This document shows positions 46,110 to 47,986 of a stretch of 64,000 bases of DNA, piece by piece. Under the pieces are notes generated by a model that worked only from the letters and a program-made list of their open reading frames with translations, was not told the DNA's origin and ran no database searches. Both the position numbers and the translations under genes were made by a program. Source of the DNA: a bacterium (GTDB lineage Archaea > Thermoproteota > Bathyarchaeia > 40CM-2-53-6); contig JAJPJY010000066.1 in assembly GCA_021323995.1 (NCBI GenBank), forward strand, positions 10,458 to 74,457, given 5' to 3'. Numbering within the stretch: position 1 is the first letter of the stretch; every line of letters begins with the position of its first letter.

Positions 46110-47189
46110 GTGGTCTTCGTAATGGCAAAACAAGATGAAGACAATGGTGGAGAGAAGTGGGTTCGGCGACCCTTTCCGAAGCATTCGCTGGAACAAACCC
46201 TGATCATTCCAAGCGCAATCCAAGACAAGAACGCGGGAAAGCCGATGCGGCGACTTCTCCTTGCCGATGCGATAGGTAGGAAACCAACCAGTTCCGAGTT
46301 CAAGTACCTGCTCAGCTCGTCCTTCAAGTACGGTCTTACCGACGGGACGGAGAAGTCGGAGCAGATCATACTGACCCCGCTAGGTCAAGCTATCGTACAG
46401 CCAAGGTCGGTAGAAGAGAGGATGGCAAAGCTTCAGGATGCCGCACTCAAGCCCGATCTATTCAAACGAGTATTCGATTACTACAACAATGCGAAGTTTC
46501 CGACTGACGGGAAGTTCTTCCGGAATGTGCTCGAGAGAGATTTCGGCGTACACACTGATTGGGTAGATGACTGTGTGAAGATCCTGAACGACAACGGAAA
46601 GTTCTCGGGTATCGTTCGGAATGTCTCAGGTTCTCCCTTTGTGATTCTCGGAGACCTTTCAGAGGTTCCGGCCGCAGAAGTCTCCACCGAGCAGACTTCT
46701 ATCGAATCTCCGACGACAGTGACGGGAGGGGATACTTCCATGAGGACGACACCGCCTCCTGTCATAGTGCCACGAGTGTTCATCTCTCACAGTAAGAACG
46801 CTAAGGTTGTGGAACAGTTGAAACGCATGCTAGTGTTCGGCGGCTTTCAGTCTGAAGTGGCAGAGGAGCATCAAACGACCTCGATCCCTGTACCACAGAA
46901 GGTGTTTGAAAGCATGCGACGGTGTAACTGTGCGGTGATCAACGTAAGCGCGGACGAACAAGAAAAGCGCGACGATGGAAGCTATGGCATCAACCCAAAC
47001 GTCTTGATCGAGATCGGTGGGGCATTCCTTCTCTACGACAAGAAAGTAATACTGCTAGTTGACAAGAAAATCAAACTTCCAAGCAACCTTCAGGGCCTAT
47101 ATGTTCTACCTTACGACGGTGATGAGTTGTCGTGGGACATGGGTATGAAGATGCAAGAGGCCCTTACGGGATTCAAGAGCAAACTCTGA
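46110..47189 (+). CDS. TIR-like domain protein (CAP12/PF10137-type predicted nucleotide-binding TIR-like domain) with unknown N-terminal domain. Candidate defence or abortive-infection effector.
   Basis: C-terminal VFISHSKNAKVVEQLKRML...NPNVLIEIGGAFLLYDKKVILLVDKKIKLPSNLQGLYVLPYD matches the TIR-like family pattern (VFIxH...NVxxExG...LPSDxxG). Confidence 0.5.
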   Translation: MVFVMAKQDEDNGGEKWVRRPFPKHSLEQTLIIPSAIQDKNAGKPMRRLLLADAIGRKPTSSEFKYLLSSSFKYGLTDGTEKSEQIILTPLGQAIVQPRSVEERMAKLQDAALKPDLFKRVFDYYNNAKFPTDGKFFRNVLERDFGVHTDWVDDCVKILNDNGKFSGIVRNVSGSPFVILGDLSEVPAAEVSTEQTSIESPTTVTGGDTSMRTTPPPVIVPRVFISHSKNAKVVEQLKRMLVFGGFQSEVAEEHQTTSIPVPQKVFESMRRCNCAVINVSADEQEKRDDGSYGINPNVLIEIGGAFLLYDKKVILLVDKKIKLPSNLQGLYVLPYDGDELSWDMGMKMQEALTGFKSKL

Positions 47190-47368
47190 GGGTGTCTTGG
47201 AGTGTTTAGAAACCTCTGATCTTCTCTGTAGCTCTCCAAAGCGGAGATACGTCCTCTTCTATCGCCGGTTTTCTCTCGTCCAATCTTCTCGTTCTGATAA
47301 CGGTCATTACAGCCATACTGATCATCACCGTCCCGATCCTGATTGATAGAAGGAGGCACCGAAGGGAG

Positions 47369-47986
47369 TTGGGCTATCGGATAGTCTCCTATGAGGCGTT
47401 GAGACGAGGAATGTCCGGAGTAGAGGTTACGTTCAATGGCATACCAGTACCTGAACCCCACCTATGCACCTTGAAGATCACGAATAACGGAAGGGTTCCC
47501 ATTCTACCGTCCGATTATACTCGAGTAATCAACGTAAACTTCCTACCATGTTCGCACTCGGCTCACTCACGTGCTCAGCCGAATGTATTGGCATTTGATT
47601 TGGTTGAACAAAGCCCGAAGAACCTTGGTGCGAACGTCAATTTGCTCAACGCGAAACTCTATGTCGAAGCGACTTTGCTCAATCCCTCGAACTCATTTAC
47701 CGTTAGGGTCTTGTTGGATCATGACTTTAATCATGAGAAACTAGACATCGACGCTCGTATCGTAGGGATCGATGAAGTCAAACCCCCTGGAGAGCCGTGG
47801 CCAAACTCTTGGTGGGTTCAAGGTTTCATGCTGATCGGTTCGATGATTTTGTTTGTCGGTGTCCTTGCCTATTACGTGAATGCCCCTAGCTTGAGTCTTC
47901 TTAGCGCAATTGTTCTCTTCTCATCGATAGCGGCCTCGATTACTTACCTGACCGGTACATCAAAGAAACGAGTTCGGAGAGGCTAA
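47369..47986 (+). CDS. Membrane protein (C-terminal TM helices). Frame is open upstream and encodes an N-terminal TM helix, but lacks ATG/GTG/TTG.
   Basis: Upstream in-frame sequence encodes LLVLITVITAILIITVPILIDRRRHRRE before the ORF-track TTG. C-terminal helices FMLIGSMILFVGVLAYY and LLSAIVLFSSIAASITYL. Confidence 0.35.
   Translation: MGYRIVSYEALRRGMSGVEVTFNGIPVPEPHLCTLKITNNGRVPILPSDYTRVINVNFLPCSHSAHSRAQPNVLAFDLVEQSPKNLGANVNLLNAKLYVEATLLNPSNSFTVRVLLDHDFNHEKLDIDARIVGIDEVKPPGEPWPNSWWVQGFMLIGSMILFVGVLAYYVNAPSLSLLSAIVLFSSIAASITYLTGTSKKRVRRG

What the first reader, a model, noticed from the sequence alone, without database searches (positions are those of the whole stretch)
46110..47986. TIR-like (CAP12/PF10137-type) protein plus a membrane protein at the right end of the integrated element: candidate defence cargo
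The C-terminal 140 aa of 46110..47189 follow the PF10137-type TIR-like pattern of CBASS CAP12-type and standalone abortive-infection effectors: VFISHS, a conserved Glu in NPNVLIEIGGAF, and LPSNLQGLYVLPYD. The N-terminal ~180 aa is an unrecognised domain, possibly a sensor. The gene sits just inside attR, a typical location for defence or superinfection-exclusion cargo. The next ORF (47369..47986) encodes a membrane protein that could be a partner or effector. TIR-like defence proteins carried by archaeal integrated elements are scarcely characterised.
Basis: partly seen in the sequence, partly recalled or inferred. Interest (0 to 1): 0.65.

Follow-up and report, generated by a model that had tools for sequence, protein, structure and literature searches.

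The report
Provirus-borne winged-helix–TIR defence gene
An archaeal integrated virus-like element carries, at its right end, a gene fusing a probable DNA- or ligand-sensing domain to an NAD-destroying TIR "suicide" domain, followed by a rare membrane protein; the gene belongs to a large untested family that probably protects cells against other viruses.

Summary
ORF 46110..47189 (likely start ATG 46122) ends in a full-length PF10137 CAP12/Pycsar-type TIR domain (55 bits, cut-off 24.7). Its Glu301 is invariant in 49 homologs, and the best structural matches are TIR-STING NADases. The "unrecognised" N-terminus is a confidently modelled tandem winged-helix domain with no close solved relative. 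The two-domain protein defines a large uncharacterised family: at least 543 species genomes from both archaea and bacteria. It has no conserved neighbour and no cyclase, and it often lies near integrases, R-M, MADS, PARIS or Shedu genes. It is therefore not CBASS, Pycsar or PADLOC PDC-S35.

An exact 18-nt repeat (32642 and 48026), an adjacent integrase and a prohead-protease gene support a 15.4-kb integrated element. The TIR gene and the membrane gene are its last two genes.

The membrane protein (3 TM helices once its unannotated N-terminus is included) is very rare. It lies directly downstream of a wH-TIR gene in 4 of 5 informative lineages, yet almost all family members lack it.

Best reading: a self-contained sensor–TIR NAD+-depleting abortive-infection or superinfection-exclusion gene with a clade-specific membrane accessory. 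A Thoeris-like two-gene system remains possible. It is a new variant of a known kind; function is untested.

The parts
46081..46088 (+). TATA-box-like TATAAATA preceded by purine-rich GGAGAGAAA; probable own archaeal promoter of the TIR gene
   Evidence: The block is conserved upstream of homologs whose proteins are only 56-70% identical (window, L009, L096, L095). It lies about 34 nt upstream of ATG 46122. The promoter role is inferred from the known archaeal BRE/TATA architecture.
46110..47189 (+). wH-wH-TIR gene (359 aa from GTG 46110; probably 355 aa from ATG 46122)
   Evidence: ORF. An identical 355-aa protein, P0001, is called in public assemblies. At least 611 full-length homologs exist, in at least 543 species genomes.
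46173..46646 (+). N-terminal tandem winged-helix domain (aa 18-175 of the 355-aa protein); candidate sensor
   Evidence: AF2 pLDDT is above 95 across this range, and the domain-only model has pLDDT 92.4 and pTM 0.85. Foldseek gives only weak winged-helix matches: SelB WH2-4, the FokI, BpuJI and N.BspD6I recognition domains, MarR and DtxR, best E 0.011. Sub-threshold PF23871 DUF7226 and PF09821 hits. The domain profile finds 5689 clusters at E<=1e-3.
46659..46757 (+). disordered, length-variable linker between the sensor and TIR domains
   Evidence: pLDDT is about 40 for aa 183-208, and the full-length pTM is only 0.53, indicating no fixed inter-domain packing.
46764..47186 (+). PF10137 (CAP12/Pycsar-type) TIR domain
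   Evidence: Pfam 55.1 bits, E 9.6e-15, full profile. Foldseek top hits are TIR-STING 9lmq and 7un8 (E 1.5e-5), then BcmB, SARM1, DNPH1 and SPARTA TIR-APAZ. The family profile hits PycTIR 8jsj at E 0.031.
47010..47012 (+). codon of Glu301 (359-aa numbering; E297 in the 355-aa protein), the putative catalytic glutamate
   Evidence: Invariant in 49 homologs that are 42-70% identical to the query. NVLiEiG aligns with NVHLEFG of PycTIR. It sits at the start of the helix after the third strand of the AF2 model. Coordinates.
47205..47248 (+). intergenic segment conserved at DNA level, with TATA-like TTTAGAAA (47205-47212) and GGAGAT (47243-47248); probable separate promoter and RBS for the membrane gene
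   Evidence: Nearly identical in the window and L096, although the flanking proteins are only about 60% identical. In L011 an ATG follows the equivalent GGAAAT directly.
47210..47986 (+). membrane protein gene. The frame is open from 47210; the first canonical start is TTG 47369 and the gene callers' start is ATG 47411. Predicted N-out TM1, RRRHRR cluster, cytoplasmic domain of about 150 aa, TM2-TM3 hairpin, basic C-tail.
   Evidence: ORF. Only 5 homolog clusters exist. Homologs carry the N-terminal TM plus the LDRRRHRRE motif. The window encodes the same segment without an ATG, GTG or TTG. Window versus L096 over 55 codons: 14 identical, 21 synonymous, 20 non-synonymous. Hydropathy. It lies directly downstream of a wH-TIR gene in the window/L009, L096, L010 and L093, but not in L011.
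48026..48043 (.). attR core (18-nt exact direct repeat)
   Evidence: The first 15 nt are conserved at the same place in L009.
32642..32659 (.). attL core (18-nt exact direct repeat)
32693..33919 (+). tyrosine integrase of the element
   Evidence: PF00589 at E 5.9e-13; PHROG integrase families at 1.6e-18; ATG 32693 is in frame.
39238..41331 (-). 697-aa protein with an N-terminal prohead (HK97-type) maturation protease, probably a protease-capsid fusion; the element's viral hallmark gene
   Evidence: Peptidase_S78 at 22.4 bits (cut-off 21). PHROG major head protein and head maturation protease families at 5.5e-8 to 2.7e-7.

Best explanation
The gene at 46122..47189 encodes a self-contained, single-protein antiviral (abortive-infection or superinfection-exclusion) system, carried as cargo at the attR end of a 15.4-kb integrated virus-derived element in an archaeon. 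The protein has an N-terminal tandem winged-helix module joined by a flexible linker to a CAP12/Pycsar-clade TIR domain. Proposed mechanism: in the lysogen the protein is made from its own BRE/TATA promoter and stays inactive as a monomer or dimer. During infection by another virus, the winged-helix module binds an infection-specific ligand, most plausibly viral nucleic acid or possibly a viral protein. This brings TIR domains together into an oligomer or filament. The assembled TIR active site, with Glu301 as catalytic residue, hydrolyses NAD+, and NAD+ depletion arrests or kills the cell before the invader completes its cycle. The downstream 3-TM protein is a clade-specific accessory that travels with the TIR gene as a two-gene cassette. 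It may be a second, membrane-targeting effector or a modulator, but the family as a whole does not need it.

Shown here: the domain identities, the invariant Glu, the absence of any conserved partner or cyclase, the mobile-element and defence-island context, the att/integrase context, and the TIR-membrane linkage in a small clade.

Inferred: NADase activity, oligomerisation-driven activation, the nature of the trigger, and the protective phenotype.
For: The TIR domain matches PF10137 over its full length, well above threshold. Glu301, the F-x-x-H of VFISHS and the NxNVLxEIG block are invariant or nearly so in 49 homologs. The Glu block aligns to PycTIR. The best structural matches are TIR-STING NADase filaments, then SARM1 and SPARTA TIRs. 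According to 10.64898/2026.04.30.722052, PF10137 TIRs form one clade of CAP12/Pycsar-type domains that become active NADases through oligomerisation and have a conserved catalytic glutamate.

The N-domain is a confident tandem winged helix. It is mildly basic, with 9 conserved K/R positions and a basic N-terminal tail, while the TIR domain is acidic. A long disordered linker and a low full-length pTM give no sign of a fixed intramolecular arrangement.

The family is large and patchily distributed across archaeal and bacterial phyla (at least 543 species). It has no conserved neighbour in 80 loci; the top neighbour cluster is tyrosine integrases in 8 of 80. Neighbourhoods contain type I, IIG and IV R-M, MADS, PARIS, Gabija-like, PDC-S28 and PDC-S35 genes. 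Homologs lie near integrases in Bathyarchaeia (L002-L004, L006). In the viral contig L098 a homolog lies at the contig end beside a Shedu gene and the terminase-portal module. The window has att repeats, an integrase and a capsid protease, and no other PADLOC hit or cyclase in the element. A recent Thoeris survey treated standalone TIR proteins as presumed NAD+-depleting effectors and set them aside (10.64898/2025.12.03.692087).
Against: No experiment exists for any member of this two-domain family. Literature searches found nothing on DUF7226, PDC-S35 or wH-TIR fusions. The trigger is unknown, and winged-helix domains can also bind proteins or serve as autoregulators. The defence-island evidence is qualitative, because the 'distal' control set lay within the same islands. 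One homolog, P0009 in Methanoregula, sits among housekeeping genes. The TIR fold also resembles nucleotide N-glycosidases (BcmB, DNPH1) at only slightly weaker scores. The tight linkage with the membrane gene in this particular clade could mean that here the TIR is a signal generator rather than the killing effector. No empty attB site was found, so mobility of the element is not proven.
Confidence: 0.55

Rival explanations
1. A Thoeris-like two-gene signalling system. The wH-TIR protein senses infection and converts NAD+ into an ADPR-derived signal. The cytoplasmic domain of about 150 aa in the downstream 3-TM protein binds that signal, and the protein then oligomerises to breach the membrane.
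For: The membrane gene lies directly downstream and co-oriented, 20-40 nt after the TIR stop, in 4 of 5 informative lineages. These include TIRs that are only 33% identical to each other (window/L009, L096, L010, L093). That linkage is far beyond chance for so rare a TIR family. The predicted topology puts the soluble domain in the cytoplasm. There is a weak hit to a conflict-system 2-TM module, PF20712, at E 0.024. The Thoeris survey predicts 29 Thoeris types, many with TM effectors.
Against: None of the 80 genome loci, nor the 70%-identical closest TIR homolog (L095), has the membrane gene, so the TIR protein works without it in nearly all lineages. PF10137-clade TIRs characterised so far are NAD+-depleting effectors, not signal generators. 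No PADLOC ThsB or ThsA model matches either protein at E<=1. One membrane-protein lineage (L011/L012/L100) has no TIR neighbour. The membrane gene appears to have its own promoter-like element.
Confidence: 0.17
2. A toxin or host-takeover module serving the element itself rather than host defence. Examples are an addiction (post-segregational killing) module that stabilises the integrated element, or a lysis/NAD-manipulation pair in which the membrane protein acts as a holin-like factor during the element's own lytic cycle.
For: The pair is located at the end of a virus-derived element and is oriented opposite to the structural genes. The membrane protein is small, with TM helices and a charged C-tail. 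It has a weak match to a phage protein family of unknown function, phrog_29378, at E 1.5e-4.
Against: The TIR family is mostly chromosomal and is found in defence-gene neighbourhoods without any viral genes. No antitoxin-like partner is conserved. tblastn finds no relative in 50,697 deposited phage genomes or 72,556 plasmids, and only 3 IMG/VR contigs carry one. That pattern is the opposite of what a core viral lysis or takeover function would show.
Confidence: 0.1
3. Not an NADase. The TIR-like or nucleoside 2-deoxyribosyltransferase-like domain is a nucleotide N-glycosidase (BcmB/DNPH1-like), or a non-catalytic interaction domain, attached to a DNA-binding winged-helix regulator.
For: Foldseek hits to BcmB CMP N-glycosidase (E 3.4e-4, TMt 0.61) and DNPH1 (E 1.3e-3, TMt 0.61-0.66). 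These enzymes also use a catalytic Glu. The N-domain looks like a DNA-binding wHTH.
Against: Sequence profiles assign the domain specifically to PF10137 (55 bits), and no N-glycosidase family appears even at E<=1. The best structural hits are TIR-STING. PADLOC CBASS TIR-effector and PycTIR models hit the domain. Invariance of the Glu block argues against a non-catalytic role.
Confidence: 0.08

Closest known systems
TIR-STING (e.g. SfSTING, PDB 7un8 and 9lmq), a CBASS effector
   Same: Best structural match of the TIR domain (E 1.5e-5). Both have a sensor domain fused to a TIR of the same TIR group; the cited preprint compares its PF10137 clade-6 amoeba TIRs structurally to SfTIR-STING. Both are expected to activate an NADase by ligand-driven oligomerisation using a conserved Glu.
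   Different: The sensor here is an N-terminal tandem winged helix, not a C-terminal STING domain. No CD-NTase is present in the element or conserved near 80 homologs, so the trigger cannot be a cis-encoded cyclic dinucleotide. Sequence identity is 14-19%.
PycTIR (Pycsar effector, PDB 8jsj) and Cap12/TIR-SAVED (CBASS)
   Same: Same Pfam family, PF10137. PycTIR is the only PDB sequence the family profile reaches, with the Glu block aligned. PADLOC CBASS TIR-effector models hit the TIR part at 2.7e-6.
   Different: The NCBIfam Cap12 equivalog scores 13.8 bits against a 450-bit cut-off. PADLOC PycTIR is at E 0.015. There is no SAVED or cNMP-binding sensor and no cyclase gene.
PADLOC candidate PDC-S35 (an untested candidate; that 'S' denotes single-gene is from memory)
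   Same: Best PADLOC hit (6e-7), through the PF10137 TIR domain. A genuine PDC-S35 gene lies two genes from a wH-TIR homolog in a Bathyarchaeia island (L002/L027).
   Different: The match covers only the TIR part (aa 220-346). The genuine PDC-S35 protein there scores 2e-48 and carries a Zn-ribbon N-terminus, so the window protein belongs to a different family.
SpbK and other standalone sensor-TIR abortive-infection proteins
   Same: A single polypeptide with an N-terminal recognition region and a C-terminal TIR, encoded on a mobile element and (for SpbK, from general knowledge) protecting against another phage by NAD+ depletion. There is a weak profile hit to SpbK 9phb around the FISHS strand (E 0.16).
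   Different: A different TIR Pfam family and an unrelated N-terminal domain. The similarity is not significant.
Thoeris systems with transmembrane effectors (type II and the newly predicted types)
   Same: The gene order, a TIR gene followed by a small TM protein with a cytoplasmic domain, resembles them.
   Different: No ThsB or ThsA model matches. The TIR belongs to the effector-type PF10137 clade. The membrane partner is absent from almost all family members.

Membership tests
Pfam PF10137 CAP12/Pycsar-type TIR (TIR clade 6) | Profile HMM match above the curated gathering score over the whole domain | tested here: met
   55.1 bits against 24.7, E 9.6e-15, profile positions 1-118 of 119.
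Pfam PF10137 CAP12/Pycsar-type TIR (TIR clade 6) | Conserved catalytic glutamate at the start of the helix after the third strand | tested here: met
   Glu301 is invariant in 49 homologs. It aligns with the E of NVHLEFG in PycTIR. Its position in the AF2 model is consistent.
Pfam PF10137 CAP12/Pycsar-type TIR (TIR clade 6) | TIR (flavodoxin-like) fold closest to bacterial NADase TIRs | tested here: met
   Foldseek top 11 hits are all TIR-STING except BcmB at rank 5; then SARM1 and SPARTA.
Pfam PF10137 CAP12/Pycsar-type TIR (TIR clade 6) | NAD+ hydrolase activity on oligomerisation | not testable with these tools
   Needs biochemistry.
CBASS (Cap12 / TIR-SAVED / TIR-STING effector) | CD-NTase cyclase encoded in the same operon | tested here: not met
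   No PADLOC hit for any other tested ORF of the element. No conserved neighbour in 80 homolog loci.
CBASS (Cap12 / TIR-SAVED / TIR-STING effector) | SAVED or STING signal-binding domain fused to the TIR | tested here: not met
   The N-domain is a tandem winged helix. The NCBIfam Cap12 equivalog scores 13.8 bits against a 450-bit cut-off.
Pycsar (PycTIR effector) | Adjacent pyrimidine cyclase PycC and a match to the PycTIR model | tested here: not met
   No cyclase. PADLOC PycTIR at E 0.015, TIR part only.
Thoeris | ThsB-type TIR plus an adjacent effector with a known signal-binding domain | tested here: inconclusive
   No ThsA or ThsB PADLOC model hits either protein at E<=1. However, a linked TM protein with a cytoplasmic domain of unknown fold lies downstream in 4 of 5 lineages.
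PADLOC PDC-S35 | Full-length match to the PDC-S35 models at scores typical of members | tested here: not met
   6e-7 over the TIR part only, against 2e-48 for a genuine member in L027.
Pfam PF23871 DUF7226 (N-terminal domain) | Profile match above the gathering score | tested here: inconclusive
   20.4 bits against a 27-bit cut-off, covering profile positions 43-101 of 142. 7 of 20 family N-domains hit it at E<=0.1. Several homologs carry the precomputed PF23871 annotation.
Integrated provirus or virus-derived integrative element | Direct-repeat att sites flanking the element, with a site-specific recombinase next to one of them | tested here: met
   An 18-nt exact repeat, with 0.02 expected by chance. 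The integrase starts 34 nt from attL.
Integrated provirus or virus-derived integrative element | Viral hallmark genes | tested here: inconclusive
   A prohead protease / head protein match, but no recognisable terminase, portal or tail genes among the tested ORFs.
Integrated provirus or virus-derived integrative element | An empty attB site in a related genome, or evidence of excision | tested here: inconclusive
   The reconstructed attB has no exact match in metagenome contigs. The related contig L009 is also occupied.

The most novel reading that the evidence does not exclude
The conserved two-gene cassette (46017-47986) is a new archaeal Thoeris-like signalling system. In it, a PF10137-clade TIR, so far known only as a killing effector, is fused to a nucleic-acid-sensing tandem winged helix and acts as the infection sensor and signal generator. 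The rare 3-TM protein, translated from a non-canonical start codon, is the signal-activated membrane-disrupting effector.
Probability: 0.15. Interest if true: 0.7.

Novelty: new variant of a known kind. Interest (0 to 1): 0.45.

Why it matters
Sensor-fused TIR NADases are a major theme of prokaryotic immunity and the evolutionary source of eukaryotic TIR immunity. The characterised PF10137-clade members (TIR-SAVED, TIR-STING, PycTIR) all depend on a second-messenger cyclase. This window exposes a large, cross-domain family (at least 543 species, hundreds of 50%-identity clusters) in which the same TIR clade is fused to a tandem winged-helix module and works without any partner gene. The family is absent from PADLOC and NCBIfam as a named system, and standalone TIR proteins of its kind were deliberately excluded from a recent systematic TIR survey. 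If the winged-helix module senses viral nucleic acid or protein directly, this would be a simple, portable sensor-effector design. It would also be one of the few defence genes documented as cargo of an archaeal provirus. The value is moderate: the domain identity is picked up by routine annotation, and the mechanism is an extrapolation from relatives.

Tried and rejected

2. Empty-site search with the reconstructed attB junction in metagenome contigs: no exact match.

3. tblastn of the protein against deposited phages and PLSDB plasmids: no match.

4. phmmer of the TIR domain alone against PDB sequences: no hit, even at E 10.

5. Metagenome scan for more membrane-protein loci: it only re-found L011 and L093.

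6. Looking for alternative effector fusions of the N-domain: the atypical-length hits were truncated or frameshifted TIR fusions. The tail of the 5689-cluster hit list could not be inspected.

7. Near-versus-distal PADLOC comparison as an enrichment test: rejected as a quantitative test, because the distal ORFs (within 6 kb) lie in the same islands.

8. PDC-S35 membership: rejected.

9. SSV-type integrase split by its own att site: considered, because the long ORF 32525..33919 spans attL. Rejected because an in-frame ATG at 32693 gives a normal integrase just inside attL, and no int(N) fragment reads into attR.

10. Stop-codon readthrough or recoding of TAG 47207 for the membrane gene: considered. 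Not supported, because the TAG lies inside a conserved TATA-like motif and L096 has no start codon upstream of it.

11. Literature searches for DUF7226, PDC-S35, or tested wH-TIR proteins: nothing found.

12. Host taxon names from cluster look-up: none returned.
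Full report
**1. What is there**

The two ORFs exist as described. ORF1 is 46110..47189 (+), 359 aa from GTG. Public gene calls use ATG 46122, giving 355 aa, identical to P0001. A TATAAATA box preceded by GGAGAGAAA sits at 46081-46088. It is conserved upstream of homologs whose proteins are only 56-70% identical, so the gene probably has its own archaeal promoter and a very short leader.

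ORF2 is 47369..47986 (+), 205 aa. The flanking genes show an archaeal host: Orc1/Cdc6 at 26937..28181 and the PolD small subunit at 12000..13514.

**2. The C-terminal domain is a PF10137 TIR**

- Pfam gives PF10137 (CAP12/Pycsar effector TIR) over the whole profile: 55.1 bits against a 24.7-bit cut-off, E 9.6e-15. TIR_2 appears only as a weak echo.
- PADLOC CBASS TIR-effector and PycTIR models hit the same region.
- In an alignment of 49 full-length homologs (42-70% identity), F and H of VFISHS, N-V-x-x-E-x-G-x-A of the Glu block, and S of LPSNLQG are invariant.
- A family profile reaches one solved relative by sequence, PycTIR 8jsj (E 0.031), with NVLiEiG aligned to NVHLEFG.
- The AlphaFold2 model (pLDDT 85.5) has a five-stranded alpha/beta domain. 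Its best Foldseek matches are TIR-STING filaments 9lmq and 7un8 (E 1.5e-5), followed by BcmB, SARM1, DNPH1 and SPARTA TIR-APAZ.

A recent preprint places all PF10137 TIRs in one clade, which it calls CAP12/Pycsar TIRs. [quoted passage not shown]

**3. The N-terminal domain**

Residues 18-175 fold with very high confidence: pLDDT above 95, and the domain-only model has pLDDT 92.4 and pTM 0.85. The fold is two consecutive winged-helix units.

Foldseek against PDB and against viral models finds only weak, generic winged-helix matches, best E 0.011. These are SelB WH2-4, methyltransferase dimerisation wHTH, the FokI, BpuJI and N.BspD6I DNA-recognition domains, MarR and DtxR. Pfam gives sub-threshold DUF7226 and, in homologs, AAA_assoc_C.

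The domain is mildly basic, with nine conserved K/R positions and a basic N-terminal tail. The TIR domain is acidic. A disordered, length-variable linker of about 35 residues and a full-length pTM of 0.53 indicate two independently folding modules.

**4. A large standalone family**

The full-length protein has at least 611 homologs in the metagenome protein collection. It also has relatives in at least 543 species-representative genomes. The archaeal ones include Bathyarchaeia, Methanoregula, Nitrosopumilus, Thermoplasmata and Woesearchaeota. The bacterial ones include Planctomycetota, Acidobacteriota, Pseudomonadota, Bacillota, Chloroflexota, Patescibacteria and others.

- Clustering all ORFs within 6 kb of the gene in 80 loci gave no conserved neighbour. 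The largest neighbour cluster is tyrosine integrases in 8 of 80 loci.
- Pooled PADLOC scans of neighbouring ORFs found type I, IIG and IV R-M, MADS, PARIS, Gabija-like ATPases, PDC-S28 and one genuine PDC-S35. This is qualitative support only, because my 'distal' set lay in the same islands.
- Individual contexts vary. Bathyarchaeia loci have an integrase three genes away and a second, Zn-ribbon-TIR gene. Another locus is integrase-linked. A Nitrosopumilus island carries Fic and an IS. One locus sits among housekeeping genes.
- In a 32-kb IMG/VR viral contig the homolog sits at the contig end, next to a Shedu SduA_C gene and the terminase-portal-cement module.
- tblastn found no relative in deposited phage genomes or PLSDB plasmids.

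The protein is not CBASS or Pycsar, because there is no cyclase and no SAVED, STING or cNMP sensor, and the Cap12 equivalog scores 13.8 bits against a 450-bit cut-off. It is not PDC-S35 either: 6e-7 on the TIR part only, against 2e-48 for a real member.

**5. The integrated element**

GTAACACAACACCCGCCC occurs exactly twice in the window, at 32642 and 48026, where 0.02 matches are expected by chance.

- A tyrosine integrase starts at ATG 32693, 34 nt inside the left copy.
- A 697-aa ORF (39238..41331, minus strand) carries a prohead protease and matches head-protein PHROGs.
- No terminase, portal or tail gene was recognisable.
- No other ORF of the element tested matches a PADLOC model.

The TIR and membrane genes are the last two genes before attR and are oriented opposite to the structural genes. 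A reconstructed empty site has no exact match in metagenomes.

A related contig, L009, shares 93% identity from 45537 across attR into the host flank. The rest of its element has diverged, so the elements are mosaic and the cargo end is the conserved part.

**6. The membrane protein**

Only five homolog clusters exist in 5.8 billion proteins. Three of them have an extra N-terminal TM helix followed by LDRRRHRRE.

In the window the same frame is open from 47210 and encodes exactly that segment, but with no ATG, GTG or TTG before 47369. The same is true in L009 and in L096. Between the window and L096 these 55 codons show 14 identical, 21 synonymous and 20 non-synonymous positions, which suggests the segment is translated.

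The DNA just after the TIR stop is almost invariant between the window and L096. It contains TTTAGAAA (47205) and GGAGAT (47243). In L011 an ATG follows the equivalent of GGAGAT directly. I read this as a separate promoter and RBS with a probable non-canonical start, but it is unresolved.

Predicted topology is N-out TM1, a basic cluster, a cytoplasmic domain of about 150 aa, a TM2-TM3 hairpin and a basic C-terminal tail.

Linkage evidence:

| Lineage | wH-TIR gene directly upstream? |
|---|---|
| Window / L009 | yes |
| L096 (TIR 56-62% identical to the window's) | yes |
| L010 (TIR 33% identical) | yes |
| L093 | yes |
| L011 / L012 / L100 | no |
| L094 | too short to tell |

Conversely, none of the 80 genome loci has the membrane gene, nor does the closest TIR homolog (70% identity, L095). 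The membrane protein is therefore a real but clade-restricted companion.

**7. Mechanism**

The best-supported model (confidence about 0.55) is a self-contained sensor-TIR abortive-infection or superinfection-exclusion protein. The winged-helix module binds an infection-specific ligand, nucleic acid being most plausible. The TIR domains oligomerise, Glu301-dependent NAD+ hydrolysis depletes NAD+, and the cell arrests before the invader matures. Domain identities, conservation, standalone genetics and context are shown. Activity, trigger and phenotype are inferred from TIR-STING, TIR-SAVED and PycTIR.

Rivals:

- A Thoeris-like TIR-plus-membrane-effector signalling pair (0.17). This is supported by the linkage and by the diversity of TM effectors predicted for Thoeris (10.64898/2025.12.03.692087).
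- An element-serving toxin or lysis module (0.10).
- A non-NADase N-glycosidase or a regulator (0.08).

**8. Novelty and verdict**

The kind, a sensor-fused TIR NADase on a mobile element, is well known. The variant is not described in PADLOC, NCBIfam or the searched literature. It is a tandem winged helix fused to a PF10137-clade TIR, independent of any cyclase, widespread in both domains, and here carried as cargo of an archaeal provirus with a rare 3-TM companion. The recent systematic TIR survey explicitly discarded standalone TIR proteins.

I rate it a new variant of a known kind, interest 0.45. It is a solid and correctly read finding with a clear experimental path, but not surprising to a specialist.

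Noticed in passing
window 47205-47411 (also L009 5790-6000, L096 4090-4300): The membrane gene's conserved N-terminal TM segment (47210-47368) has no ATG, GTG or TTG start, yet it shows 21 synonymous against 20 non-synonymous differences between the window and L096. It is preceded by a DNA-level-conserved TTTAGAAA...GGAGAT block. The likely explanation is a non-canonical start (ACG 47249, ATC 47261 or CTG 47216). Gene callers annotate a truncated 191-aa product from ATG 47411.
   Followed up: partly
window 32491-32597 and 48334-48434: A 19-nt motif, CTTCACCGTTCACATGTAG (left) and TTTCACCCTTCACATGTAG (right), is followed about 70-75 nt later by the palindromic TTCCAGTGGAAA. The pair occurs once outside each att core: about 150 nt left of attL and about 290 nt right of attR, beyond a 74-aa ORF. 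Chance expectation is 0.04 matches. It may be the relic of an older integration, or a duplicated regulatory or small-RNA element. No Rfam family matched at gathering threshold.
   Followed up: partly
window 32642-48043: The 15.4-kb element has an integrase and a 697-aa prohead-protease/capsid-like gene (39238..41331, minus strand), but no recognisable terminase, portal or tail genes. It could be a very divergent small archaeal tailed virus, a defective provirus, or a capsid-encoding satellite-like element.
   Followed up: partly
L009 versus window 45537-48803: A contig from another sample shares 93% identity over the cargo end (the small ORF, TIR gene, membrane gene, attR and host flank), but the rest of its element is largely unalignable. 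It also has a 346-bp insertion at window position 48329. The elements are mosaic at the same integration site.
   Followed up: partly
window 29375-30493 (-): A 372-aa protein with an Mrr_cat restriction-endonuclease domain (E 4.2e-10) lies about 2 kb left of attL. It has no PADLOC match. It may be a host defence gene next to the integration hotspot.
   Followed up: no
L002/L003/L004/L027 (Bathyarchaeia), locus coordinates 3081-8499 of L002: An integrase-linked island carries a wH-TIR homolog (49% identity), an unrelated 180-aa gene, and then a second PF10137 protein with a DnaJ-type Zn-ribbon N-terminus that matches PADLOC PDC-S35 at 2e-48. Two different sensor-TIR genes sit side by side.
   Followed up: partly
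L098 690-9490 (IMG/VR UViG_3300035688_000042): A 32-kb viral contig has a wH-TIR homolog at its very end, followed by a Shedu SduA_C-domain gene on the opposite strand and then the terminase large subunit, portal and cement-protein genes. This looks like a defence-cargo pair beside the packaging module.
   Followed up: partly
L010 1-3029 and 7707-8898: The divergent TIR-membrane cassette in L010 lies next to a UvrD-helicase plus NucS_C gene pair. It is also about 1 kb from an M24 peptidase gene that is 75% identical in DNA to the window's gene at 62306-63497. The cassette therefore occupies a different chromosomal position in a related archaeon.
   Followed up: no
window 44157-44711 (-): A 184-aa element ORF with an E-C-K motif (WLLECKNRE) reminiscent of PD-(D/E)xK nucleases. 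No Pfam, PHROG or PADLOC hit.
   Followed up: no
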